Below, piece by piece: positions 2,476-37,500 of a stretch of 64,000 bases of DNA. Position 1 is the first letter of the stretch. The number at the start of each line of letters is the position of its first letter. This stretch comes from the human T2T-CHM13v2.0 reference genome, Homo sapiens: assembly GCF_009914755.1 (NCBI RefSeq), contig NC_060930.1. One strand, given 5' to 3'. The translations under genes were made by a program, and so were the position numbers. The notes under the pieces were generated by a model, which did no database searches, had not been told where the DNA came from, and saw nothing but the letters and a program-made list of their open reading frames with translations.

Positions 2476-5194
2476 TATTTGCCAGATCACAATCATCATC
2501 TTTTCTCCCTCCTCATCTTTACTTTAAAAGTAAACATCTACCCTCAACAAATGCTCATACATAGTCCTGTACCAACAGCTAAGATAATTGAATTTTTAGA
2601 AACATTTAAAAATGTGGAGACACTGTAAATGACTGGAGTGTGTAGGAACTCACTGGCTGCATCCTGAATGTCAAGGTTAAAACCTAAGCACCAACAAATA
2701 TGGAAAGTGAAAGATGAATAATTAAGAAATGGGCTAACTGTACCATTTGAAAGTTTCCATTACCAAGGCTTAATATTTAAGTAATGCTTCCTGATTTGGG
2801 CACGAAATAATTAATTACGATTAATAGTGCTTGGGAATGTATTTTCAAGTTCTGAAAAAATGATGTGGAATGTATCATAGTTTGTGAACTATGCAACTTT
2901 GTCTTGTTATTTCAGCCCATGGAGAAGAGAATATTTCTTTGTCTTTACCTCATGCAGTAGCATGCCAGGCCACTGCTGGGTCAGGCAACAAATAAGTTGT
3001 TTGTGCCTGAAAAAATAATGGTAGCCCTATCTTCTTTCAGAATAGTCATGGGAAACAATGAAAACAAAATAGCAAGTTATAAAATGGCAACTTTATTTTT
3101 TCAATAATTCTTACCTCATTTATAACTATTAACTATTTGTGTAGTTTTTCAAAATGTTTTCTGCCTACTGTATCTCTTCACTGTATCCCCAGGTTAGTGT
3201 GTTATTGAATTCATTGTGCTCAATAAAGGTTGGAGCCAATGAATAAATAAATAAAATGAATGTCTGTCTACACTAACTCTAGAATCTTAATTTTAAACCA
3301 TAAAAAAAGAAAGGTGAATGTTTTCCAAACAACAACAACAAAAATACAAAAACAATTCTTATTAATTAAATGGAACATGGACTTTTGTTCCCAATTTTAT
3401 TTTTGAATTCCTTTAATTTCCTCTTGTCTAAATCTTGAACACAACATGTTTAAAAACCAAATCTTAACTACTTGCCACCAAAGTGGCCGCCTTGTTTTGT
3501 CTGACAATGTGTTCCAGCTTTTCTTCTTTCAGACATCTCTTTCCACAGCCTCTCCTTTCTCTATAAGTTCTCTTAACAAGATTCCTCAATTGCCTGACAC
3601 TTCTCTACTAATCTAGTAATACATCTTCATTAAAATTTTATTTTTCTTTTTGAAGAGCTTGTCTTTTCCTCCTTATCATTAAAGCTTTAAATACCCAAAG
3701 GAAAACTAGTTAATAATTTCTCAGAACATAAAATCTAAGAACTAGAAAAAAAAGATATCAATTTGTTTATTTTCTTAAGACTGTGAAATCCAGTCTTACT
3801 TACAAAAATGGAAAGCTTTTTCACACTTTACACTGTCCAGATGTCAAGGTATAACCTTTTAGTAAAACAAATAGAAAATTAATACTCCTTATTGGTGTGT
3901 AAACATTAGGCTACTTTTCTTATATTGCTGCAGGAGATATGCCAAGCTATTTGTCTTTTTAAGCTTTGCAAATGTAAAATATAGTAATGTGGTTTACTTT
4001 AGTCTATTACAAATTCACCTCACTGTCTATTAACATATCTCAACTCTAACTCAATGGCACTTCTACCTGTATTATTCATTTTTCATTATCCCATAATCCA
4101 GAGCTCTTGGATGAGACTCCGTAAAACACAACTATTAGGTCCAAACTCAGGGATATTCATCTGTTGGGACGCGGATTAAATCATCAAGTTATTTCAGCAG
4201 GCTAAACCAACTGCCACTCAATTGTAGTGTGCGTTTCCTACCAGTGCTCATTCTAACCACAATTCATGATTAAAAATTTTTGTATTCAATTCAGATTGCC
4301 TCTGGCACCAACCTGAATTAACTTGCCAAAGTACTGTGCATTTTTAGTTACTTAGCCAATAAACTGGCAGCCTAAGTCTCCTCCTGTATATTGTGATCTA
4401 AATGAGGCTTTACAAGCCTCAATTTTCCCCAAAGAGAGTTCACACTGAGCTGAAGACAAAAAATTTTCACATTTTATCAGTCTCAGGTCAGAACATCATC
4501 TGTCAAAATCAATTGTCTTTTTTCTCACTTTTCTCGTTATTAAAAATTCCAGCAGAATATGTATGAGGTGAAGCCACAGAACAAACTTGGTAGCCTGGAA
4601 AGTTTTAGAGTTTTAAAGTCAGCTCAGTGTCAGGGCAAAAAGAACAGAATATAGGTATGAGTTACTGTGGTTCATCAGAATACTTTAAAAAATATCGGTA
4701 AGTTAGAAACACTTAACTATTCAGTAGTAGGAGATGAGTTAATTAGATTATATTGCATGCATTCAGTGGAATGCTATGTGATCATTAAAACTAATGATAA
4801 AACATTTTTATTGACTTGAAAGGCAAGTTATAATATAATTTATTTCCCATATATATGTGCATACAAGAAATTAAGGGAGATTACTAACAGTGATTATATC
4901 TAGGTTAGAAAATTTCAGGCAACCTTATTTTTTACTTTTCTATATTATTGATTTGTATTTTTATTAAAAATGAACACATCTACTTCTAGCCACAATAGAG
5001 AAACAAGAACCAGATCTCCTTTTCCACTTTAAACAACTGAAAAACTAGGTAAAATATATGAACCAATGGTTTTCAGATATGGGACCACAGGCAGTGCAGG
5101 ACGGTTATCCTTGAGAGAAGAAAAATGTGAGATGGGCTTCACAAGATCTCAGCTTATTGTCAGGGTGAGTTTCCAGGCAGCAGCATAAGAAAGG

Positions 5195-5557
5195 TGTATT
5201 ACTGCATTCTCACACTGTTAATAAAGACACACCCGAGACTGGGTAATTTATAAAGAAAAAGAGGTTCAATGGATTCACAGTTCCACGTAGCTGGGGAGGT
5301 CTCACAATCATGGTGGAAGACAAAAGGCATGACTTACATGGTGGCAGACAAAAAGGAAAATGAGAGGCAGACAAAAGGGAAAACCCCTTACAAAATCATC
5401 AGATTTTGTGAGACTTCTTCACTACCATGAGAACAGCATGGGGGAACCGCCCCCATGATTCAATTATCTCCCACTGGGTCCCTCCAACAACATGTGGGAA
5501 TTATGGGAGCTAAAATTCGAGATGAGTTTTGGGTGGGGATACAGCTAAACCATATCA
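5195..5557 (-). mobile_element. THE1B-like MaLR solo LTR
   Basis: TG...CA ends, reverse complement of tgatatggttt.gctgt.tccccaccc; 5-bp TSD AAAGG at 5190-5194 and 5558-5562. Confidence 0.9.
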
Positions 5558-6328
5558 AAAGGGAAGCCCAAATTGAGCCGGGAATATTCCTGGGTTGAGG
5601 AGACAGAGCTCAGAATTTGGGGAGTACAAGGTGGCTAGAAGTAGCAGGGCAGGATACCAGAGAGAAAGAGTGGCAAGAGAGTGAGCCCCAGAGACCTGCA
5701 GAGGAGTTCTCTGGAGTCCTCAGCTCAGCACTTCACAGCTGACGCTGTGAGGAAACTTAAAGTTAGGAAAAGAATCAAGAAAGCAATAGAGTCCCACCAG
5801 GACAGAATTACTCTTGTTTCAGTAACCAGAGTGGAAAGTTCATAATGTATAAGTATCAGTACTCAGGAGGATATTGCCTCAGTAAGGGGGCCAAATTAAC
5901 CCTAGATAAAAGATTGCTCTCATCCTGTGTATCAAAGTGCCTCAGAAGGACTGATCTATTTCTAGGTACTGTACCTTAACTGTATCCAGAAACAAAGCTC
6001 AAAAATATTTAAAAGATTCAGCATCCAACAGCATAAATTCATAATGTCTGACATCTATACGGAAATTACAAGGCATGCAAGGAGGAAGGACAAACAATCT
6101 ATGAGGGTAAAACTCAACCATTACAAAAGACACAGAAATGGAAAATATAATAGGATTAGAAGACTAAGACATTTTTAAAAATTGTAAATATACTCTGTAT
6201 GTTCACAGAGGTAAAGCAGAGGTATGTTAAGGAGAAATATGGAAGCTAAAAAGAGGCCCAAATTAAACTACTAGATTTGAAAAATATCATGTTCAGATAA
6301 AAAAAATGTACTGGTTGAGATTAGTAGC

Positions 6329-6714
6329 TGATATGGTTTGGCTGTGTATCCCCACCCAAATATCATCTCGAACTGTAATCTCATGTGTTGAGGGAGGGGC
6401 CTTTAATCTTTACGTGTCGAGGGAAGGAGGTGATTGGATCATGGAGATGGTTTCTCCCATGCTGTTCTTGTGATAATGAGAGAGTTCTCATGAGATCTGA
6501 TGGTTTTCTAAGTGTTTGGCAAGTTCCTCCTTTGCATGCTGACACTCTCTCCTGCTGCCTTGTGAAGAAGGTGCCTGCTTCCCTTTCTGCCATGATTATG
6601 TTTCCTGAGGCCTCCTCAGCCATGCAGAACTGTAAGTCAGTGAAACCTCTTCCCTTTATAACTTACCTTGTCTTGTGTAGTATCTTTATAGCATTGTCAG
6701 AACAGGCAAATACA
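6329..6714 (+). mobile_element. THE1C/D-like MaLR solo LTR
   Basis: Starts tgatatggtttggctgtgt, ends aataca; 5-bp TSD GTAGC on both sides. Confidence 0.9.
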
Positions 6715-24816: not shown

Positions 24817-27800
24817 GCTTGCAGGTTTCAAAGAGAAGCCTGCTCATGCCAGCCAGCATCCATCATCTCTAGGATCTGCCAGCAGTGCCAGGAGCTGAGT
24901 ACACATGGACTTCAGATCAGTTGTAAGCTCTGAGCTCGGTGTCCACCTTCTGCAGATGCTGCTGCTGTCCCGCTAGTACAGAAGCCTTCCAGGGCTCTCT
25001 GCTCAGTCCTAGCAGCTCTCAGAGTCACCTAACAGACCTTCCTAAACATACTTACATCCTGTTCAAGTGGCTCTGATGTGAGTGAGACTGGGCATTATAA
25101 GCATCCAGCTGTCAAGAATCAACTAGGGTTTTTTGTCTTTGGAAGTACCTTTTCAGAAGAGTTGATCCTCAAAGAAGATATTTATCTAGTGGCTTTACAT
25201 AACATGCTTATGCAATCTGTGAAGTCTAGATGCAAATGATGCACTCAATTTTTGATGTTTTCCAACCAATATTGACTGAGCACTCAATATGTACAGGCAA
25301 TGTGTGGGGAACTGAGGATATGAGGGTAAGTGAATATGGACACGGTCCCTGGACTCTCAAAACTTACAATCTAGTATTGGCCAGTTTGAAGGACTGAGAT
25401 AAGGCTACTGTTATTTCATTGGAATCACATAATATATTTAGTATTTTTAATAATAGAAGTTCATAAAATGCAAGAACATAGGTCTTCTGAAACCACTTGT
25501 CCGGTAGGTCTTTCCAATCTTCAATACTGACTCTTAGAGTAAAAAAAAAAAAAAAAAAAAGGTAGCCTGGATGTGGTAGGGGGAGGGGAGTGGGATGGAA
25601 GGAAAATGAAAACTAGGAAGTTGATTGCTCCAAACAGAGTTTCAACGTAGACTCATTAGTAAAAATGAACTACCTTCCTGGTTAACTGAACTGAGTTTAA
25701 TCACTATGAAATAATTCAGTGCTGACAGACAAGATGGGCATCATTACCTTGTTCCTTGTATTCCACTTCTGGATTTTTATGAGACTTTTCCACTTCACTG
25801 GAAAGTCGTCTTCGTCAATCAATTTTACGTATTCGGTTTGGATCACTTTCCTAAGGTAGATTAAGATCCAAGTGTACTTTTGTGTTTTTAACTATATTAA
25901 TTGCTTGATCAGCTCCCATTTCAGAGAAGCTCAGGGAAATGCTTTGTGCTTACATCTCTAGTCTCTGAAAGCTGCTTCTTTGCCTTTTCCTTCTTGTCTA
26001 TTAACCCTGCACTTGCCATGCAAATTATACAAATGTTGCACTTCTGGCACTAGTAAATTACATTTATATTTGAATTTCATTAGACACTTTCACGGGTGAT
26101 TGAGCTTGTTTACGTTCTTCCTTTCTAATCAAACGACTGAAATCTAAGGTCTGTCTCTGACTCAATGGTATGGCAAACAAGTTTTATTCTTGCAAAATAA
26201 TTTCTAAGTAATTGAAAATGGGAAAAAAAGAGGAAGAAAAAAGCGTCTTCAAATGCAGACTTCTTTTTTCTTTCTTATGAGCAACTGAAATCCTAGAATT
26301 GAAAACTGTTTAATTAAGCATTTTGAAATAAACACCAACAACCCAATGAAGAAAGTATAAACACAACCATTTGTATATTTTCGATTCTTGTGCTGAGGAT
26401 AACTATGTTGACACTTTAAAAAATCTATGTCTTTGTAAGGGCAAAACAAAACAATCAAATTGTTCCAAATGGATTTGGATATTTAAGAGGTCCATACCAT
26501 TAATAAGAATTGACCTCAATCTTGCCTTGAATAAAATACTGTCTCCTAGTATTTATGAAGACCTTTGTAACAGATAACAAAGCATGGTATTAAGTAAAAG
26601 TTGACATATTCTCTCTAGAGGATTATAAGTAATGAGATTGTGTGAGTAAACAATCCATCTTTCATTTGGTGTGATATTTCTAGGTATGTTAAACATATAT
26701 TTTTCAGTATTCTAAAATAGCACAAAAGGATTAATTGATTTACTAAAGCGTTTAAAACTTTTATATTCTCTTTCCAAAGAAATACAAATTACTTTGGAGA
26801 TCTCTCCTTACAAAAATGACTGTTTACTTGAGAAGAAAAACAAAGAACATTAAAAACACAATTGGCCTCGGATGATAATTTGAGATTTCTCTAAACTCTA
26901 TGTTATGTAGGACTAAATTTTTATTAATGATTTCTCATGTCCTACTTCTAGTTTCTCAAATTTTTAATAAATGAGCACACATTATATATTTAAAACTACC
27001 CATTGTCTTTCCTTTTGTCTCATCCAGATTTTTAAATCCACTGTACTGCAGCCAAACTGGACTAGCGGTTAGTCCCCAAACATCTCTATACTCCCAATCT
27101 CGGGCTTTTCTTGAGGCAAATCTTTCCATTTGCCTAAAATCTATTCCCCGGTATCTATGCCTAACATTGTTCTGCTGGTCTTTCATTTCTCAATACAAAT
27201 ACCAGATTCTCTGTCGAAATTTTCCCTAAAGAGATCTCTCCCATCTTTGAAGCACACATTTAGAATACTCTGAAAAGCAGTGTTTAGAGTGAGACCTGGG
27301 TTTAAATGATAACTGAGCACTGGTTACATATCTTTGGGCAAACTGACCTCTCAGACTTTATGACTTTTGTCTGTGACATAGGAGGCACATGCCCATATGA
27401 CTGGGAGAAACAAATGAGATAATTTAGGGAAAATTCTTGGTTGGTCCAGTGTTAGTTCCATAGAAGGGCTCAGGATTTGTAGCCACTGCTATAATTCTAT
27501 TACTACCCACATTTCATCCATGACAAATCATCTACTTTAGTTGGGAGAGTACATGTATACTTTCCTAACTATTGATAGATCATAATGATAAGAAAATATC
27601 TATGTTTCTTTGCTTTCATCCATCACAATATCTAACACAATGTCATGGCACTTAATAAATAATTCTTAATTAACTGTTTCTTCCGTGAGTACCTTGAATG
27701 GCTTATTCACTGAAAAAAGAAAAAACATATCCAGTCATTCTCTTTTCTCACCCAACTTGTGAGCTTGCGTGTGTGCATGTGCAGGGGAGGGGGAGAAAAG

Positions 27801-28409
27801 TATGTGTACACTCTCATAGGCTTAGCTGGCAAACATCTCTGGAGTGGGGTGCCAGCTAACGTTGTATTCCTGTGGTGGGAAAAAAAAAATGCTTCTAAAA
27901 ATTGGTAATTCTCATCAATACACAGAATGTAATTAAATATGCCAGTAAATTACATTTATATTTGAATTCAGAGCCTTATCAGCTAGGAGATAACTAGAAA
28001 CAAATTTTCCTAATAATAAATTCTTAAGGATTTAATCTAGAAAATGATATTTAGTTCAGCATCAAGTTTTCAAGCTTATTTTAGCTTTGGAAAATTATAA
28101 TTTCTGAGTAACTAAAACTTGAGAAATAAAAGACATCTTGCTAGCATAATTTGTAAAGCATTCAGTGGTTAAAATAAGAAAAATTAGCCTTTGAGTGAAA
28201 CTTAAAACACGTTTGTCAAAAGCTAGCAGCCAAAACACAGGAAAGCAATTTATCCAAAATTAGATTGCTTTGAAATACTAAGGTTAATGGAATCAAGAGA
28301 GGAAAAAGGTGGTGAGATAATTTGGGATCGTTAAGACCTTCAACTTAGATGGGACATAATCTAAGTTAACTATGTGAACATTAACTCATGTCTTAAAATG
28401 CTCCAAACA

Positions 28410-31328
28410 GAGTGGGGGCTGGCAAGATGGCCAAATAGGAGTAGCTCTGGTCTGCAGCTCCCAGTGAGATCAATGCAGAAGGCAGGTGATTTCTGCATTT
28501 CCGAATGAGGTACCTGGCTCATTTCACTGGGACTGGTTAGACTGGGTGCAGCCCAAGGAGGGCAAGCCAAAGCAGGGTGGGGTGTCACCTCACCCAGGAA
28601 GCACTAGGGGTTGGGGAGCTCCCTCCCCTAGCCAAGGGAAGCTGTGAGGGACTGTGCCCTAAGGAATGGTATATTCAAGCCCAGAAACTATGCTTTTTCC
28701 ACGGTCTTCACAACCTGCAGAGCAGGAGATTCCCTCAGGTGCCTACACCACCAGGACCCTGGGTTTCAAGCACAAAACTGGGTGGCCGTTTGGGCAGACA
28801 CTGAGCTAGCTGCAGGATTTGTTTTTGTTTTTTTTTCATGTCCCAGTGGTGATTGAAACACCAGTGAGACAGAACCATTCATTCCCCTGGAAAGGGGGCT
28901 GAAGCCAGGGAGCCAAGTGTTCTAGCTCAGTGGATCCCACCCCCATGGAGCCCAGCAAACTAAGATCCACTGGCTTGAAATTCTCGCTGCCAGCACAGCA
29001 GTCTGAAGTTGACCTGGGATGCTTGTGCTTGGTGGGAGGAGGGGCATCCACCATTACTGAAGTGTGAGTAGGCAGGTTTTCCCCTCACAGTGTAAACAAA
29101 GCTACTGGGAAGTTTGAACTGGGCAGAGCCCACCAGAGCTCAGCAAAGATGCTGTAGCCAGACTCTCTCTAGATTCCTCCTCTCTGGATAGGGCATCTCT
29201 GAAAGGCAGCAGCCCTAGTCAGGGGCTTATAGATAAAACTCCCATCTCCCTGGGACAGAGCACCTGGGGGAAGGGGCGGCTGTGGGCGCAGCTTCAGCAG
29301 ACTTAAACATTCCTGCCTACCAACTCAGAAGGCAGCAGCCAATCTCCCAGCACACACTCGAGGTCTGCTTAGGGACAGACTGCCTCCTCAAGTGGGTCCC
29401 TGACCCCTGTGCCTCCTGACTAAGAGACACCTCCCAGCAGGGGTCGACAGACACCTCACACAGGAGAGCTCTGGCTGGCATCTGGTGGGTGCCCCTCTGG
29501 GACAAAGCTTCCAGAGGAAGGAACAGGCAGCAATCTTTGCTGTTCTGCAGCCTCTGCTGGTGATACCCAGGCAAATAGGGTCTGGAGTGGACCTCCAGTA
29601 AACTCCGGCAGACCTGCAGCAGAGGGGCCTGACAGTTAGAAGGAAAACTAACAAACAGAAAGGAATAGCATCAACATCAACCAAAAGAACGTCCACACAG
29701 AAACCCCATCTGAAGGTCACCAACATCAAAGACCAAAGGTAGATAAATCCATGAAGATGAGGAAAAACCACTGCAAAAAGGCTGAAAATTCCAAAATTCC
29801 AAAATACCTCTTCTCCTCCAAAGGATCACAACTCCTTGTCAGCAAGGAAACAAAAGCGGATGGAGAATGAGTTTGACGAATTGACAGAAGTAGGCTTCAG
29901 AAGGTGAGTAATAACAAACTCCTCTGAGCTAAAGGAACATGTTCTAACCCAATGCAAGGAAGCTTTAAGAACCTTGAAAAAAGGTTAGAGGAATTGCTAA
30001 CTAGAATACCCAGTTTAGAGAAGAACATAAATGACCTGATGGAGCTGAAAAACACAGCATGAGAACTTCGTGAAGCATACACAACTATCAATAGATGAAT
30101 CAATCACGTGGAAGAAAGGAAATCAGAGATTGAAGATCAACTTAATGAAATAAAGCATGAAGACAAGATTAGAGAAAAAGAATGAAAAGAAATGATAAAG
30201 ACTCCAAGAAATATGGGACTATGTTGGAAAACAGTCTTCAGGATATTATCCAGGAGAGCATCCCCAACCTAGCAAGACAGGTTAACATTCAAATTCAGGA
30301 AATACAGAGAACACCATAGAGATATTCCTCCAGAAGAGCAACCCCAAGATACATAATTGTCAGATTCACCAAGGTTGAAATTCAGGAAAAAATGGTAAGG
30401 GCAGCCAGAGAGAAAGGTCTGGTTACCCACAAAGGGAAGCCCATCAGACTAATAGCAGATCTCTCTGCAGAAACCCTAAGAGCCAGAAGAGAGGGGGCCA
30501 ATATTCAACATTCTTAAAGAAAAGAATTTTCAACCCAGAATTTCATATCCAGACAAACTAAGTTAATCATATCCAGCCATAAGCGAAGGAGAAATAAAAT
30601 CCTTTACAGACAAGCAAATGCTGAGAGATTTTGTCACCACCAGGCCTGCCTTACAAAATCTCCTGAAGGAAGCACTAAATATGGAAAGGAAAAACTGTTA
30701 CTAGTCACTACAAAAACAGCAAATTGTAAAGCCCACAGACACTATGAAGAAACTGCATCAAGTAATGGGCAACATAACCAGCTAGCATCATAATGACAGG
30801 ATGAAATTCACACATAGCAATATTAACCTTAAATGTAAATGGGCTAAATGTCCCAATTAAAAGACACAGACTGGCAAATTGGATAGTCAAGACCCATCAG
30901 TGTGGTGTATTCAGGAGACCCACCTCATGTGGAGAGACACACATAGTCTCAAAATAAAGGGATGGAGGAATATTTACCAAGCAAATGGAAAGCAAAAAAA
31001 AAAGCAGGCATTGCAATCGTAGTCTCTGATAAAACAGACTTTAAACCAACAAAGATCAAGACAAAGAAGGGCATTAAATAATGGTAAAGGAATCAATGCA
31101 ACAAGAAGAGCTAATGAGCTAACTATCCTAAATATATATGCACCCAAACAGGAGCACCCAGATTCATAAAGCAAGTTCTTAGAGACCTACGAAGACACTT
31201 AGACTCCCACAATAATAGTGGGAGACTTTAACACCGCACTGTCAATATTAGACAGGTCAATGAGACAGAACATTAACAAGGATATTCAGGACTTGAACTC
31301 AGGTCTGGACCAAGTCGACCTAATAGAC
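28410..31328 (+). mobile_element. L1PA (L1PA7/8-like) 5' part: 5'UTR, disrupted ORF1, start of ORF2 endonuclease
   Basis: ggcaagatggccaaatagga 5' end; ORF1 remnants; atgacagga ORF2 start near 30793; EN motif GDFNT in ORF 31218..31451; ends abruptly at gacctaatagac. Confidence 0.92.
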
Positions 31329-31891
31329 CTAAAATCACTTGCATGTGTGCAAAAGAAAGCCACAGAATGTGTGTCAGCATTGTTTATAGTCATAGGAAAT
31401 TTCAAACATGTGTACTTTGTAAATCATAGGACAATAATAAATTATTTGTGACATATTCCAATAATGGAAAGCTCCACTGCAGTTTGAATGAATGACGTGA
31501 AAGAAGATGCATCAAAACAAATAGAAATAAAAATGTATTGTGTTGGATAAAAGGCAAGTTACATCATCATTATATAAAGTGTTTGATGTTAATTTTGTAC
31601 ATTTTAATTTATATACACTACACAGAGTATAAATTTTAATGTATGTATATACATATATAAATGTTAGTTTATATGTATGTAAATATATAATTTATTTTTG
31701 ATTAATTATAATTAAGAATAAAGAATACAGCATATAAACATAATTTTCTATAGTGTGTTATATATAGTACTTATATTAAGTATAAAATTTAATTTAAATA
31801 CAGTATGAACTTATATCTTTTAAGTTTATGCGTTATGTGCATATGAATATGTAATAAAACTGTGAAATACATGTAGAAGAGTAAGAAAAAA
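31329..31891. other. Non-L1PA segment (old L1ME-like 3' fragment plus AT-rich DNA) between the two L1PA parts
   Basis: Loss of L1PA similarity; cacttgcatgtgtgcaaaag...cagcattgtttatag resembles an old L1M 3' end. Confidence 0.6.
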
Positions 31892-33815
31892 AGAAAACCC
31901 CATCGTCTCAGCCCAAAAATCCCTTAAGCAAATAAGCAACTTCAGCAAAGTCCCAGGATACAAAATCAATGTGCAAAAATAACGAGCATTCCTATACAGC
32001 AATAATAGACAAATAGCCAAATCATAAGTGAACTTTCATTCACAATTGCTACAAAGAAAATAAAACACCTAGGAATACAACTTACAAGGGATGTGAAAGA
32101 CCTCTTCAAGGAGAACTACAAACCACTGCTCAAGGAAATAAGAGAGGACACAAACAAATGGAAAAACACTCCGTGCTCACGGATAAGAAGAAACAATATC
32201 GTGAAAATGGCCATACTGCCTCAAGTAATTTCTAGATTCAATGCTATCCCCATCAAGCTACCATTGACTTTCTTCACAGAATTAGAAAAAAACACTTCAA
32301 ATTTCACATGGAACCAAAAAAAGCCCATATAGCCAAGACAATCTTAAGCAAAAAGAACATAGCTGGAGGCGCCATGCTACCTGACTTCAAACTATACTAC
32401 AAGGGTACAGTAACCAAAACAGCATGGCACTGGTACCAAAACAGATGTATAGACCAATGGAATGGAACAGAGCCCTCAGAAATAACACCACACATCCATA
32501 ACCATCTGATTTTTGACAAACTTGACAAAAACAAGCAGTAGGGAAAGGATTCCCAACTGAATAAATGGTGTTGGGAAAACTTGCTAGCCATATGCAGAAA
32601 ACTGAAACTGGACCCCTTCCTTAAACTTTGTACAAAAATTAACTCAAGATGGATTAAAGACTTAAACGTAAGACCTAAATCCATAAAAACTCTAGAAGAA
32701 AACCTAAGCAATACCATTCAGGACATAGGCTTGGGCAAAGACTTCATGACTAAAACACCAAAAATAATGGCAACAAAAGCCAAAATTGACAAATGGGATC
32801 TAATTAAACTAAAGAGCTTCTGCACAGCAAAAGAAACGATCATCGGAGTGAACAGGCAACCTACAGAATGGGAGAAAATTTTTGCAATCTATCCATCTGG
32901 CAAAGGGCTAGTATCCAGAATCTAGAAGGAACTTAACCAAATTTACAAGAAGAAAACAACCCCATCAAAAAGTGGGCAAAGAATACGAACAGACACTTCT
33001 CAAAAGAAGACATTTATGCAGCCAGCAAACACGTGAGAAAAAGCTCATCATCACTGGTCATTAGAGAGATGCAAATCAAAACCACAACGAGATACCATCT
33101 CACGCCAGTTAGAATGGTGATCATTAAAAAGTCAGGAAACAACAGATGCTGGAGAGGATGTGGAGAAATAGGAACACTTTTACACTGCTGGTGAAGGTGT
33201 AAATTAGTTCAACCATTGTGGAAGACAGTGTGGTGATTCCTCAAGGATCTAGGACCAGAAATACCATTTGAAACAGCGATCCTATTACTGGGTGTATACC
33301 CGAAGGATTATATATCACTGTACTATAAAGACACATGCACATGCATGTTTATGGCAGCACTATTCACAATAGCAAAGACTTGGAACCAACCCAAATGTCC
33401 ATCAGTGATAGACTGGAAAAAGAAAATGTGGCACATATACACCATGGAATACTATGCAGCCATAAAAAAGGATGAGTTCATGTCCTTTGCAGGGACATGG
33501 ATGAAGCTGGAAATCATCATTCTCAGCAAACTAACTCAGGGACAGAAAACCAAACACCGCATCTTCTCATTCATAAGTGGGAGTTGAACAATTTGAGAAC
33601 ACATGGACACAGGGAGGAGAACACCACACAATGGGGCCTGTTGTGGGGTGGGGAGCTAGGGGAGGGATAGCATTAGGAGAAATACCTAATGTAGGTGATG
33701 GGTTGATGGGTGCAGCAAACCACCATGGTATGTGTATACCTATGTAAGAAACCTGCACATTCTGCATATGTATCCCAGAACTTAAAGTATAATTAAAAAG
33801 AAAAGAAAAGAAAAA
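31892..33815 (+). mobile_element. L1PA 3' part: ORF2 C-terminal remnants, 3'UTR, A-rich tail
   Basis: ORF2 peptides ([51 protein letters not shown]); ends cttaaagtataattaaaaagaaaag. Confidence 0.95.
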
Positions 33816-33989
33816 TGCAACCTGTGTAAGTAGAGAAATTTCACAAAGTAATAGCTAAATGTGTACCACACCTGTGTTTTAGGGAGCTTGGTTGTTTTTA
33901 AAAATAATTTGGAATCAATACTTTAAACCCTGTTTTATTATTTACCATTATTTCTCACAATCAATATATCACATACATATATACTTGTT

Positions 33990-34150
33990 TATTTGCTTAC
34001 TGTTATCTTTGCTTCACTGGGATATAAGTTCCATGAAATGAAGAACTTTGGACTTGTTCACTGCTAAATCTGCAGTACATAGAACAGTGCCAACATACAG
34101 AGGGATCTTAGAATATATTTGTTGAATATATGAATAAGTGAACGAGTAAA
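33990..34150 (+). mobile_element. L2 3' end remnant within the transduced segment
   Basis: gatataagttccatga...cttgttcactgct...agaacagtgcc...atatttgttgaatatatgaat. Confidence 0.6.
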
Positions 34151-34256
34151 TTTCACTTGGCATCTTTTTTTCTTTTTACTTATCATGTTTTGAGGATTTC
34201 TCCATGTTACTAAAGAGTAAAATACCTTTTTAAGGAAGAAATCATGGTGTACCTAC

Positions 34257-34580
34257 TGATATACTTTGGCAGTGTCCCCACCCAAATCTCATCTCAAATT
34301 GTAATCACCATAATCCACACATGTAGAGAAAGGAACCCAGTGGGAGGTGATTGGATCATGGTGATGGTTTGGTTTCCCTCATGCTGTTCTTGTGATAGTG
34401 AGTTCTCACGAGATCTGATGGTTTTATAAGGGGCTCTTCCCTGTTCGCTCCTCACTCTTCCCTCTCCTGCCACCTTGTGAAGAAGGAGGTGTTTGCTTCC
34501 ACTTCTGCCATGATTATAAGTTTCCTGAGGCCTCCCCAGGCATGTGAAACTGTGAGTCAATTAAACCTCTTTCCTCCATT
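34257..34580 (+). mobile_element. THE1-type LTR truncated at its poly(A) site (U5 missing)
   Basis: Starts tgatatactttggcagtgtccccacccaaatctcatc; stops 15 nt after ATTAAA (34560-34565); followed by an (AAC)n tail instead of the ...ctaataca end. Confidence 0.9.
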
Positions 34581-37500
34581 AAAACAACAACAACAACAAA
34601 ATGCTCCAAACAACTGGGGAATGTTAGGGAAAATATTCCAAGAAAAAGAAGGGCCCAAGGTGATTACTGTATTTTCCTTTTAGAAGGATAATGGGAAGCC
34701 CATTGAAATTCTTTTCTGGTGAAGCTGCTTTTCACTTACAAATGACTTGACAGAAAACTCAAGTTTACAAAAAGAAAATGGCAGTTAATGTTAAGATGAC
34801 TGCAAGTATAATTTGTAGAATCACTTGAGAAAAAAGTGAGTTTTTGATATGAGTTACTGAAGTGTATCTCTGGATATTATTTGGGGCTCCTTGGAGTAAC
34901 AGAGGGAAATGATGTAGAAATGAAACTATAGGGTTTGGCCATGAGGCTGCCTCACAGCACTTGCATCAATTACATTTGTTAATTTCATCCATCCTTCGAC
35001 TTATATTCATTAATTAATTCATTCATTTGTTTGCAAGTGTTTCAATGTGTCCTGAGAAGTATGACCATTGCAAAAACTACAATAACAAAAATAGAGTCAT
35101 GAACTGTGTTTTCTTTTAATGGAAGTAAGTAATAACCATGTTTATTATAATAGGTCCCCTTGAGTTGCACTTAGTATTTAATATTTTTAAAGTCAAATAA
35201 TTCTGTTGCCATGACCTTTTTTCCCCTCCAGATCACTAAGAAACCAGAAATGTGTAAATTAAATGTACCAGTATCCAAAGCTATAGTATTTATATTTTTT
35301 GAAAAGAGTAATATTATTTGTTAGAGATCTTGTTCAGTCATTTATAAATAGTCACCTTTGTAAAGCAAGAAATAACCTTGTTTAAAAAACCACTGACATT
35401 GTTGTTCTATTGTCAGCTGCTGGTAATTGAAAATGTGTTTCTGCCAGTTCTACCTAAGATGGAATGTAATTCCTTCTAAGATCTTGATCTTAAATTGGTA
35501 GCAAGAAAGCCAAAAAGGAAAAGCAAGAAGTCTTTGCTTGTTCTTTGCATGAGTAATTTTGTACTGCCCTTTCTGATAATGTGAGTTATTATTCTTACCG
35601 ACTCTTGGAAGGCAGCAGTAGGCTTCTATTTTTTTTTTTTTTTTGCAGCTCTGTTTTACTCAATTGATATGGAAGTGGGTCTCTGCCTGGCTTTGGAACA
35701 CACATTTGTAATGTTTATTTTAAAATAAAATCCAGATTGCTTTGTTAGAACAAGCATCTATACACAGTAAATAGCTGAAGTCTTGCCACAGTCTCCTCAG
35801 CTTCGCTGCTCCTGAGAGACCACAAACTTGTCCTGGAACATGTGTAACCTAATAGCCCAGAGTATAACAATGATGACAGGGAATCAGTCTTGGTCTCAAA
35901 ATATATTGATCTGGGATAATCTTAACTGTTACCAGCCTCGATTAGATAACTACCCAAATCTAATATTTCAGAATGATCACAGTCTGCCATGCTTATCTAT
36001 ATTTCAAGGAATGCAAACAGAATTTTAATTACATTTGTAACACTGCCTGAGGTAATCATATCACAGAAAATACTGAAGAGCTCTTCTAAAATTCATATTT
36101 TTTTCCTGTTGGAGGAAATACAGAGGACAGCTGGAAGTAAGAGTAAAATTCTTTCTTAATCATCAGAGAATTTGAAAAATAAACAAACAAGTTGATTTGG
36201 GGGAGATGATACCTTCTCATCAACCAAGTACAAGGAGCAACTTAATCTTGGAGTTGGGATAAGTTTATGAGGTCACATAGGCAATTTTTTTCACTAGAGC
36301 TCCAACTCCATCTGTATTATTTTGAATAGAGGTCGCCCTGACTCTCACCACTTCTAGAGATTGGGAATTTACTATTTAGCAATGCAGTTTGGCCAATCCC
36401 ATTTCTAAAGCACTCTAAATGTTAAGAGAGTTCCTTATATTGAGGCAAAAAAAATTAGCTTCCTCTGGAACTTCTTTTTATTGTTCTTTGTGCTGTCCTG
36501 TGGAATTAACCGAATACATCTAATTAACTCCTGTTTCACATGACAGTCTTTCAAATATTTGATGATACCTACCATGACCAGTGTTTGGTCCAGTGGTGTT
36601 AATTTTCTTTCCTTTGATTTCCTGCACACGGCAGGGATGTAGGAATGGGGTTAACTTCTTTCTCCTTTTTCTTTTTAAATCACAAAGGTGTCCTTTAAAA
36701 GGGCTACTCTTGCATTGCCTTTGTATAGGCTCTTAGCTAAATTAAGTACCATGCTTACTTTAGCCCTTCAATATATGTGATATTTTATATCAAACTGCAT
36801 ATGTATTTTGATGTTTAAAATTTCTGGTCATTAGGCATATAAGCATTTGGATTTTTAAACAAAGGATCATCTTGATGATACCATGTATGAAATTAGCACA
36901 CTGATTACAGTGAAGTTTAAAAATTAGAACCTCATATGCCATAGTTTGTTGACTTATTTAAAATTAGTTCATGTGGCATACAGATGGTAGAAATACAAAT
37001 CTGAAGCTGAACCATCATATGTTCAACTGCTTCAAGATATTGTGATAAATAAGAAGCAGTACTTAGCGAACTCAATCTATCAGTTAGTAGAGGGAAGACA
37101 GGTAGGTGGGTGTCAGACATGTAGTATGTTTTTCCCAAAGATGAAAATAAACTTATGGTGCATGTCTGGGAAGTTTTCCTGGTAAGCTCATTTGCTGAGA
37201 CATTCTGACATCCACAAGTTGTTGTAGATGACTGTATGAATTAACTGAGCCTGCAGATGCTTCTCTGAAGCCAGAAACTCCGTGCTATGCACCCATGCAA
37301 CATGAAGTGGGAGAGCAGTGGCATGAACTGGGAAATGTCAAAAGGCAACTTTTCAAGTTCTAGATCTTGACGGAGGCTGGACATTCATGAGACTAACGGA
37401 ATTATGGATTGCACTGTATGTAAACCGGATCTCACCTGGAAAATAAAGAAACCAAATCAAATAAATGTTATAGGGAACTTTCTGAAACCACACTACAATA

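What the first reader, a model, noticed from the sequence alone, without database searches (positions are those of the whole stretch)
28395..34612. L1 3' transduction terminated at a THE1 LTR poly(A) site (6.2-kb composite insertion)
Seen: the 15-mer AAAATGCTCCAAACA immediately precedes the L1 5' end (28395-28409, in a TT/AAAA endonuclease site). It recurs not after the L1 tail (33815) but at 34598-34612, after a second A-rich tail, (AAC)n. In between lie ~440 bp of non-L1 DNA (with an L2 remnant) and a THE1 LTR cut 15 nt after its ATTAAA signal, lacking U5. Established: L1 read-through to downstream poly(A) signals causes 3' transduction, and MaLR LTRs carry a poly(A) signal at this position. 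Inference: the transcript started at an L1 promoter elsewhere, was polyadenylated by a THE1 LTR, and was inserted here by TPRT. So 33816-34580 is foreign DNA that tags the source locus, and the LTR was moved by L1 machinery. Repeat annotation would show these as unrelated neighbours.
Basis: partly seen in the sequence, partly recalled or inferred. Interest (0 to 1): 0.8.

Follow-up and report, generated by a model that had tools for sequence, protein, structure and literature searches.

The report
L1 insertion carrying chromosome-3 DNA
An old L1 jumping gene on human chromosome 6 arrived with about 765 bases copied from chromosome 3 that end at the poly(A) site of a retroviral-type LTR, which is a clean but ordinary case of L1 carrying neighbouring DNA, with the twist that no L1 sits at the chromosome-3 donor site today.

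Summary
The exact 15-mer occurs only at 28395-28409 and 34598-34612. It brackets an L1 with a complete 5' end, an A-rich tail, 441 bp of non-L1 DNA, an LTR cut 14-18 nt after ATTAAA, and a second A-rich tail.

I found the donor at G000:C3:23482317-23483078. There the same 441 bp runs into a complete 367-bp LTR, 52 nt longer than the window copy, flanked by CCTAC/CCTAT. So the chromosome-3 DNA and the LTR were moved as RNA by L1 machinery.

The donor has no sense L1 in the 20 kb upstream. The read-through source element is therefore inferred, not shown. It was probably an allele that was never fixed. A template-switch chimera is the main rival.

New here: the L1 is not intact. 1.57 kb of ORF2, including the reverse-transcriptase core, is replaced at 31329-31891 by a polyadenylated 563-bp copy of a chromosome-2 sequence. 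This is either a nested retrocopy with a target-site deletion or part of the same chimeric event.

No outgroup genomes were available. I rate it a new member of a known kind, of modest interest.

The parts
28395..28409 (+). 5' copy of the 15-bp target-site duplication, starting at a tctt|aaaa nick site
28410..31328 (+). L1 5' segment: complete 5' end, long 5' UTR, ORF1, start of ORF2 (endonuclease region). It matches positions about 1-2935 of three full-length 6.43-kb relatives at 83-87%.
   Evidence: Pfam Transposase_22 (L1 ORF1) at 30320-30517, E 9.6e-23; 1 of 11 open pieces tested matched.
31329..31884 (+). Foreign piece inside the L1, a copy of G000:C2:118100060-118100628 (p = 11.4% over 553 nt). 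It ends 26 nt after AATAAA (31853-31858).
31885..31891 (+). g plus a short A run (6-7 A) between the chromosome-2 piece and the resumed L1. Read as a remnant of a poly(A) tail.
   Evidence: absent from both the chromosome-2 locus and the L1 relatives
31892..33794 (+). L1 3' segment: ORF2 C-terminal part and 3' UTR. It matches positions about 4505-6425 of the relatives at 87-89%. The 1.57 kb between the two L1 segments is missing.
   Evidence: In relative L015 the RVT_1 hit (4446-4958, E 7.7e-21) lies almost wholly inside the missing stretch.
33795..33815 (+). First A-rich tail, aaaaagaaaagaaaagaaaaa. Its last about 10 nt (agaaaaa...) are also present at the donor, so the junction is ambiguous over 33806-33815.
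33816..34256 (+). 441 bp copied from chromosome 3 (donor G000:C3:23482327-23482763), p = 5.8% over 433 nt. It contains an ancient interspersed-repeat remnant at about 33994-34142.
34257..34583 (+). MaLR-type LTR ('THE1' by recall) copied from the donor's solo LTR. It stops 14-18 nt after ATTAAA (34560-34565) and lacks the last 52 nt of the donor LTR.
34584..34597 (+). Second A-rich tail, now (AAC)n
34598..34612 (+). 3' copy of the 15-bp target-site duplication

Best explanation
One target-primed reverse transcription event, roughly 20-40 million years ago, inserted a single long RNA at a tctt|aaaa site on chromosome 6.

The RNA most likely began at the promoter of a full-length L1 that then sat on chromosome 3, just upstream of what is now C3:23482317. 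Transcription ran through the L1's own weak poly(A) signal and across 441 nt of flank. The RNA was cleaved and polyadenylated at the ATTAAA signal of a sense-oriented solo MaLR (THE1-type) LTR.

The L1 proteins copied this read-through RNA into chromosome 6, giving L1 - A tract - flank - LTR without its last 52 nt - A tail between 15-bp duplications. The source L1 allele on chromosome 3 was never fixed, or was lost, so only the empty allele survives.

Separately and later, probably soon after, a 5'-truncated retrocopy of a polyadenylated chromosome-2 transcript was inserted in the same orientation at a ttt|agaaaa site inside ORF2. That insertion deleted 1.57 kb of target DNA.

Shown: the single duplication, the donor locus, the direction of copying, the use of the poly(A) site, the absence of an L1 at the donor now, and the internal replacement. 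Inferred: the former source L1, and the order of the two events.
For: 1. Exact 15-bp duplication around the whole block and none around the L1 alone.
2. The L1 5' end is complete.
3. Two A-rich tracts, as described for 3' transductions (PMC4859970, passages read).
4. The foreign 3' part matches one other place in the genome over its full length. That place continues on both sides, with the LTR complete and flanked by CCTAC/CCTAT. This fixes the direction as chromosome 3 to chromosome 6.
5. The window LTR is nearer to the donor LTR (87%) than any of the 38 other scored copies (80-83%). It is also the only one cut at position 315 of 367.
6. The cut lies 14-18 nt after ATTAAA.
7. At the donor the copied stretch begins at aaat|agaaaaa, an acceptable L1 endonuclease target. 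This is where a source L1's tail and 3' duplication would lie.
8. Donor-copy divergence is 7.8% pairwise. The L1 3' end differs from its nearest relatives by 9-11% pairwise. The L1 and the carried DNA are therefore of similar age.
9. A lost ancestral L1 allele is the reading given in print for comparable cases where no L1 is found at the source (PMC13174262, passage read).
10. Internal piece: it has AATAAA 26 nt before its end, a short A run, an endonuclease-like site in the L1 relatives, no duplication and 1.57 kb lost. These match the described features of target-site-deletion insertions (PMC4859970).
Against: 1. No L1 lies next to the donor sequence, and no sense L1 of this type lies in the 20.3 kb upstream. 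The only L1-like hit there is a 71% antisense fragment. The key element of the model is therefore unseen.
2. No second insertion carries the chromosome-3 tag, so there is no sibling to confirm an active source there.
3. The internal chromosome-2 piece is not younger than the chromosome-3 piece. Its divergence is 11.4% +/- 1.35 against 7.8% +/- 1.0. A later nested insertion would be expected to be equal or younger.
4. The internal piece has the same orientation as the L1. A single chimeric event requires this, whereas an independent insertion has a 50% chance of it.
5. Two foreign polyadenylated RNA pieces in one element is an unlikely coincidence under independent events.
Confidence: 0.65

Rival explanations
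1. Template-switch (or RNA-ligation) chimera made in one event. Reverse transcription was primed on the poly(A) tail of an L1-independent chromosome-3 transcript that ended at the LTR signal, for example an intronic, prematurely polyadenylated host-gene RNA. After about 770 nt, at the A-rich agaaaaa, the enzyme jumped to the poly(A) tail of an L1 RNA. In the fullest form of this model it later jumped to the tail of a chromosome-2 RNA and back to L1 RNA. This would give a four-part mosaic under one 15-bp duplication.
For: - The donor has no L1.
- All parts share one orientation. Each foreign piece ends at a poly(A) site and is joined through an A run to the next segment at an A-rich template position: agaaaaatgc and agaaaacccc.
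- The 5'-most part is full length at its 5' end and the block has short direct repeats. These meet the listed criteria for such chimeras (PMC2104539, passages read).
- The chromosome-2 and chromosome-3 pieces are of similar or equal age.
- The donor lies 22 kb upstream of + strand UQ_con exons, so a sense host pre-mRNA may cross it.
Against: - Known chimeras nearly always have the LINE as the 3' part, where priming starts. Here L1 is the 5' part, which goes against cis preference (PMC2104539; PMC13174262).
- A full 5.4-6 kb L1 copy after a jump is demanding.
- The four-part form needs three jumps, the last landing inside L1 RNA with only 1 nt of overlap.
- The junction signatures are equally those of endonuclease nick sites.
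- 3' transduction is far commoner a priori (recalled: about 10-20% of full-length L1s).
Confidence: 0.2
2. 3' transduction from a chromosome-3 source L1 that already carried the chromosome-2 piece. Such a source would be defective for reverse transcriptase, so its RNA would have been mobilised in trans by another L1's proteins.
For: The chromosome-2 piece looks somewhat older than the chromosome-3 piece (11.4% against 7.8%), and the element lacks the RT core.
Against: - Trans-mobilisation of L1 RNA is rare (recalled cis preference).
- The source would have had little time to acquire a nested insertion.
- No other L1 in the genome carries the chromosome-2 piece. Only 2 full-length matches were found, the window and the chromosome-2 locus itself.
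- The divergence difference is only about 2 standard errors. The chromosome-3 piece is itself uneven (5.8% and 10.5% in its two halves).
Confidence: 0.07
3. Unrelated neighbours: an L1, a stretch of local DNA and an LTR that integrated on its own, with the 15-mer repeat arising by chance.
For: This is what a repeat annotation alone would suggest.
Against: - 0 of 100 shuffles give a second exact 15-mer.
- 33806-34583 is a copy of a chromosome-3 locus whose flanks continue on both sides.
- The LTR lacks its 3' end, has no 5-bp duplication of its own here, and ends in an A-rich tail.
Confidence: 0.02

Closest known systems
L1 3' transduction (Moran 1999; Goodier 2000; Pickeral 2000: recalled, not held. 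Anatomy as summarised in PMC4859970, passages read)
   Same: L1 followed by an A tract, then unique DNA from another locus that ends 10-30 nt after a poly(A) signal, then a second tail. One target-site duplication surrounds everything, at an endonuclease-type target.
   Different: The donor locus has no L1 in this assembly, so the source is inferred. The terminating signal belongs to a solo MaLR LTR, so a piece of LTR was copied by L1 machinery. The L1 body is also interrupted.
Orphan transduction or non-reference source element (Solyom 2012, seen only in the table and reference list of PMC4859970), and the 'lost ancestral L1 allele' reading for 5' chimeras in Law and Burns 2026 (PMC13174262, passage read)
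   Same: The carried DNA maps to a locus that lacks an L1 in the reference. This is explained by a source allele that is polymorphic or lost.
   Different: Here the L1 itself is present in the offspring with a full 5' end. The event is tens of millions of years old, so the source allele cannot be recovered from present populations.
Chimeric retrogenes formed by template switching during LINE reverse transcription (Buzdin and colleagues; criteria in PMC2104539, passages read)
   Same: Copies of RNAs from different loci are fused head to tail in one orientation, with a poly(A) end and short direct repeats. The 5'-most part is full length.
   Different: In the described chimeras the LINE is the 3' part and the 5' part is usually a small nuclear RNA. 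Here L1 is the 5' part and the 3' part is an unannotated transcript ending in an LTR. That paper says the two human tripartite cases lacked identifiable direct repeats; this block has a perfect 15-bp pair.
L1-mediated insertions with target-site deletion (Gilbert 2002; Symer 2002: seen in the reference list. Described in PMC4859970, passage read)
   Same: The internal chromosome-2 piece ends in an A run at an endonuclease-like site, has no duplication, and replaces 1.57 kb of the target.
   Different: The inserted RNA is a non-repeat, unannotated transcript fragment, and the target is itself a young (at the time) L1. The pre-insertion state has not been seen.

Membership tests
L1 3' transduction | L1 3' end, A-rich tract, non-L1 DNA, second A-rich tail, in that order and in one orientation | tested here: met
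L1 3' transduction | A target-site duplication brackets the L1 plus the extra DNA, not the L1 alone, at an endonuclease-type target | tested here: met
   Exact 15-mer at 28395 and 34598 only; tctt|aaaa. After the L1 tail only the 7-mer aaaatgc recurs. It is not adjacent to the L1 5' end and is native to the donor.
L1 3' transduction | The extra DNA ends shortly after a poly(A) signal | tested here: met
   ATTAAA at 34560-34565; homology to the donor ends at 34580-34583
L1 3' transduction | The extra DNA maps to a unique donor locus that continues beyond the copied stretch | tested here: met
   G000:C3:23482317-23483078. The donor LTR is 52 nt longer and unrelated flanks lie on both sides.
L1 3' transduction | The extra DNA was contiguous with the 3' end of a source L1 at the donor when transcribed | tested here: inconclusive
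   In this assembly there is no L1 at the junction and no sense L1 of this type in the 20.3 kb upstream. An ancestral allele that was lost cannot be seen with these tools. The junction aaat|agaaaaa is a possible nick site.
L1 3' transduction | Empty site in outgroups: one copy of the 15-mer, joining 28394 to 34613 | not testable with these tools
   No other primate genome is held.
Template-switch chimeric retrogene | Parts from different loci directly joined in the same orientation and flanked by short direct repeats | tested here: met
   criteria from PMC2104539
Template-switch chimeric retrogene | The 5' part is a full-length RNA copy; the 3' part is a 5'-truncated copy, usually of a LINE | tested here: inconclusive
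   The L1 5' end is complete. The true 5' end of the chromosome-3 RNA is unknown. The LINE is the 5' part, not the 3' part, which is atypical.
L1-mediated insertion with target-site deletion (internal piece) | A poly(A)-ended insert at an endonuclease-like site, no duplication, target DNA lost | tested here: met
   AATAAA at 31853-31858, an A run at 31886-31891, ttt|agaaaacccc in 3 of 3 relatives, and about 1570 bp missing against 3 of 3 relatives
L1-mediated insertion with target-site deletion (internal piece) | The pre-insertion state (intact ORF2 at this locus) is seen in another genome | not testable with these tools
   No outgroup genomes are held.
MaLR / THE1 LTR | Abundant LTR of about 350-370 bp with TG..CA ends, a 5-bp flanking repeat, and a poly(A) signal about 50-70 nt before the 3' end | tested here: met
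   The donor copy is 367 bp, tgatg...aataca, flanked by CCTAC/CCTAT, with ATTAAA 67 nt before its end. There were 9033 first-look candidates, and 38 of 39 non-self scored matches are full length at 80-83%.
MaLR / THE1 LTR | Assignment to the THE1 subfamily by a repeat library | not testable with these tools
No Dfam or Repbase is available here.

The most novel reading that the evidence does not exclude
The whole block is a single four-part retro-chimera made by three template jumps in one reverse-transcription event. The order of copying would be: chromosome-3 RNA, then L1 RNA, then chromosome-2 RNA, then back to L1 RNA through to its 5' end. It is sealed under one perfect 15-bp target-site duplication. 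That would make it a human multipartite chimera with intact duplications and with L1 as the 5' partner. The paper read here (PMC2104539) says neither was seen for the two human tripartite cases.
Probability: 0.12. Interest if true: 0.55.

Novelty: new member of a known kind. Interest (0 to 1): 0.3.

Why it matters
Repeat annotation would therefore misread the origin of that LTR fragment and count it as an LTR insertion.

The carried tag points to a precise place on chromosome 3 where an active L1 probably once sat and has vanished. This is a small, concrete example of how transduced tags record extinct source elements.

The LTR's poly(A) signal clearly worked in vivo at the time.

The second foreign piece inside the L1 makes the locus a useful test case for telling nested retrocopy insertions from multi-template chimeras once primate alignments are consulted.

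None of this changes what is known about L1 biology. 3' transduction, lost sources and target-site deletions are all established.

Tried and rejected
- The classic papers were not held, so what I say of them is recall or comes from reference lists. These are Pickeral 2000, Szak 2003, Solyom 2012, Buzdin 2003 and Smit 1993.
- Pfam on 11 open pieces of the window L1 gave only the ORF1 hit (1 of 11). I therefore mapped the missing ORF2 part through a relative. There, 2 of 7 pieces matched: RVT_1 above its cut-off, and Exo_endo_phos_2 at 22.4 bits, below its 27.4 cut-off.
- I looked for a source L1 in 30 kb around the chromosome-3 donor. I found only a 71% antisense L1 fragment and two other antisense LTR copies.
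- I looked for an L1 of this type in the 10 kb upstream of the chromosome-2 donor. I found only an ancient L1-like stretch at 59.5%.
- I tested whether the two L1 halves come from different subfamilies. The best genome-wide relatives of the 5' 891 bp are 83-87% identical and those of the 3' 891 bp are 89-91%. The three relatives picked by their 5' end match the 3' half at 87-89%. This gives no sign of two origins, but it is not a sharp test.
- I considered the 7-mer aaaatgc after the L1 tail as a duplication for the L1 alone. I rejected it because it is 8 nt away from the L1 5' end on the left and is part of the donor sequence.
- I rejected splicing from the L1 into a chromosome-3 acceptor (the donor reads ...aaatag| before the copied part). 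The L1 keeps its whole 3' end and tail, and there is no donor site.
Full report
**Observation.** The 15-mer AAAATGCTCCAAACA occurs exactly twice in the window, at 28395-28409 and 34598-34612. None of 100 shuffles gave two exact copies, and allowing two mismatches adds none. In 27000-36000 it is the only perfect direct repeat of 15 nt or more.

The first copy begins at gtctt|aaaa and is followed directly by an L1 5' end. The second follows an (AAC)n tract.

**The L1.** The first 891 bp have thousands of relatives in the same genome (5269 first-look candidates). The 39 non-self matches scored are 83-87% identical. I fetched three full-length relatives of about 6.43 kb.
- They align to the window from 28412, within 1-3 nt of their own 5' ends, so the element is full length at its 5' end.
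- They align to its 3' end up to 33793-33815.
- Pfam finds the L1 ORF1 domain at 30320-30517 (E 9.6e-23). That was 1 of 11 open pieces tested; the other 10 gave nothing.

**The L1 is interrupted.** Window 28412-31328 matches relative positions about 1-2935, and 31892-33808 matches about 4505-6425. The window's 563 bp at 31329-31891 stand in place of about 1570 bp in all 3 relatives. In relative L015 the RVT_1 match (4446-4958, E 7.7e-21) lies almost wholly in that missing stretch. A weak endonuclease-domain match (22.4 bits, below the cut-off) spans the left break; this was 2 of 7 pieces matched.

**The carried DNA and its donor.** A search of the window's own assembly with 33816-34256 gave the window itself, one full-length match at G000:C3:23482327-23482763 (92%), and four short weak matches to the middle of the query. 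Read in full and aligned, the homology runs from window 33806 to 34583.

At the donor the 441 bp continue into an LTR of 367 bp. It begins tgatg and ends aataca, and is flanked by CCTAC and CCTAT. It runs 52 nt beyond the point where the window copy stops. Unrelated DNA follows on both sides. The direction of copying is therefore chromosome 3 to chromosome 6.

With the donor LTR as query there were 9033 first-look candidates and 40 were scored. The window copy is the nearest (87%). The 38 other non-self matches are 80-83% identical and all reach position 363-367, while the window copy alone stops at 315.

The stop lies 14-18 nt after ATTAAA (34560-34565), the usual distance for cleavage.

**What is not there.** At the donor, the base before the copied stretch begins unique AT-rich DNA (...gttttgaaat|agaaaaatgcaac...), not an L1 tail. 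I compared the whole chromosome-6 block with 30 kb of chromosome 3 (C3:23462000-23491999). This gave four matches: the donor itself, a 71% antisense L1 fragment, and two antisense LTR copies. No sense L1 of this kind lies in the 20.3 kb upstream. No other insertion in the genome carries the chromosome-3 tag.

**Age.**

| Comparison | Aligned nt | Difference |
|---|---|---|
| Donor vs copy, whole | 746 | 7.8% +/- 1.0 (K2P 0.083) |
| Donor vs copy, unique part | 433 | 5.8% |
| Donor vs copy, LTR part | 313 | 10.5% |

The L1 3' end differs from its nearest relatives by 9-11%, a similar per-lineage distance. With recalled neutral rates of about 1.0-2.2 x 10^-9 per site per year, this puts the event very roughly 20-40 million years ago.

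**The internal piece.** 31329-31891 has one other full-length match, G000:C2:118100060-118100628, at 86%. Substitutions alone give p = 11.4% +/- 1.35 over 553 nt. At that locus the flanks are unrelated to the window. The only L1-like DNA in the 10 kb upstream is an ancient stretch at 59.5% identity ending 79 nt before the piece.

In the window:
- The piece starts with a 1-nt overlap at the L1 break.
- It ends 26 nt after AATAAA (31853-31858).
- It is followed by g and 6-7 A.
- L1 then resumes at agaaaacccc, where all three relatives read ttt|agaaaacccc.
- There is no duplication around it.

These are the marks of the 3' end of a polyadenylated RNA copied in at an endonuclease-like site with loss of target DNA. 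A review describes the same features for target-site-deletion insertions (PMC4859970, passage read).

**Mechanism.** That the block is one L1-type, RNA-mediated insertion carrying chromosome-3 DNA cut at the LTR poly(A) site is, in my view, nearly certain. How the L1 and the chromosome-3 RNA came to be joined is less certain.

*Read-through (my preferred reading, about 0.65).* I favour transcription from a source L1 that once sat at the donor. 3' transduction is common. The anatomy matches the textbook description: two A tracts, one duplication, and the carried DNA starting where the source's 3' duplication would be (PMC4859970). The donor junction aaat|agaaaaa is a usable nick site. Most active L1 alleles are never fixed. 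A recent survey applies the same 'lost allele' reading to L1 chimeras whose source L1 cannot be found (PMC13174262).

The donor lies 22 kb upstream of + strand exons encoding a ubiquitin-conjugating domain (C3:23504626 and 23537582). By recall this is UBE2E2, and the donor would be intronic and sense. A full-length sense L1 there would be selected against, which fits its loss. Sense LTR poly(A) signals in introns are known to terminate transcripts (PMC1794541, passages read).

*Template switching or RNA ligation (main rival, about 0.2).* The same host-gene context offers an L1-independent way to make a chromosome-3 RNA ending at the LTR. The criteria for such chimeras are one orientation, short direct repeats and a full-length 5' part (PMC2104539). 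These are formally met.

Three further observations fit a single multi-jump event:
- The element holds a second foreign polyadenylated piece.
- That piece is in the same orientation.
- It is no younger than the first.

Against this: the LINE is the 5' part rather than the 3' part. Three jumps are needed, one of them landing inside L1 RNA. The A-rich junctions are equally well explained as nick sites.

I could not separate these readings because no other primate genome is available here.

**Comparison and verdict.** This is a well-resolved instance of L1-mediated co-mobilisation of flanking DNA, ended by an LTR's poly(A) signal, with the donor identified. It is a new member of a known kind.

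Its interpretation is partly supported: the foreign origin, the RNA route and the LTR poly(A) site are shown, while the L1-promoter source at the donor is inferred.

The absent source and the second foreign insert earn it a modest 0.3.

Noticed in passing
window 31329-31891: Inside the L1, 563 bp copied from G000:C2:118100060-118100628 replace about 1.57 kb of ORF2, including the RT core. [quoted passage not shown] It is either a nested retrocopy with a target-site deletion or part of a multi-template chimera.
   Followed up: yes
window 33811-33817 and 28395-28401: The 7-mer aaaatgc that follows the first L1 tail equals the first 7 nt of the 15-bp duplication. It is native to the chromosome-3 donor and is not adjacent to the L1 5' end, so I take it as chance. 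It could mislead an annotator into calling a 7-bp duplication for the L1 alone.
   Followed up: partly
window 33816-34256 versus 34257-34580 (donor L002:1501-2250): The LTR half of the carried DNA differs from its donor almost twice as much as the unique half (10.5% against 5.8%). The chromosome-2 piece differs by 11.4%. Uneven rates or conversion among LTR copies might explain this. I did not examine it.
   Followed up: no
G000:C3:23482317 (L002) and C3:23504626-23504808, 23537582-23537737: The donor lies 22 and 55 kb upstream of + strand exons matching Pfam UQ_con positions 15-76 and 64-116. It is probably inside an intron of an E2 ubiquitin-conjugating enzyme gene (UBE2E2 by recall), in sense orientation.
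   Followed up: partly
window 33994-34142: Four weak matches elsewhere in the genome (74-87% over 46-100 nt) mark an ancient interspersed repeat inside the carried DNA.
   Followed up: partly
window 33795-33815 and 34581-34597: Both A tails are now patterned, (AAAAG)3 and (AAC)5, although the second must have been added as plain poly(A). Tail patterning therefore says nothing about whether the first tail was genomic or freshly added.
   Followed up: no
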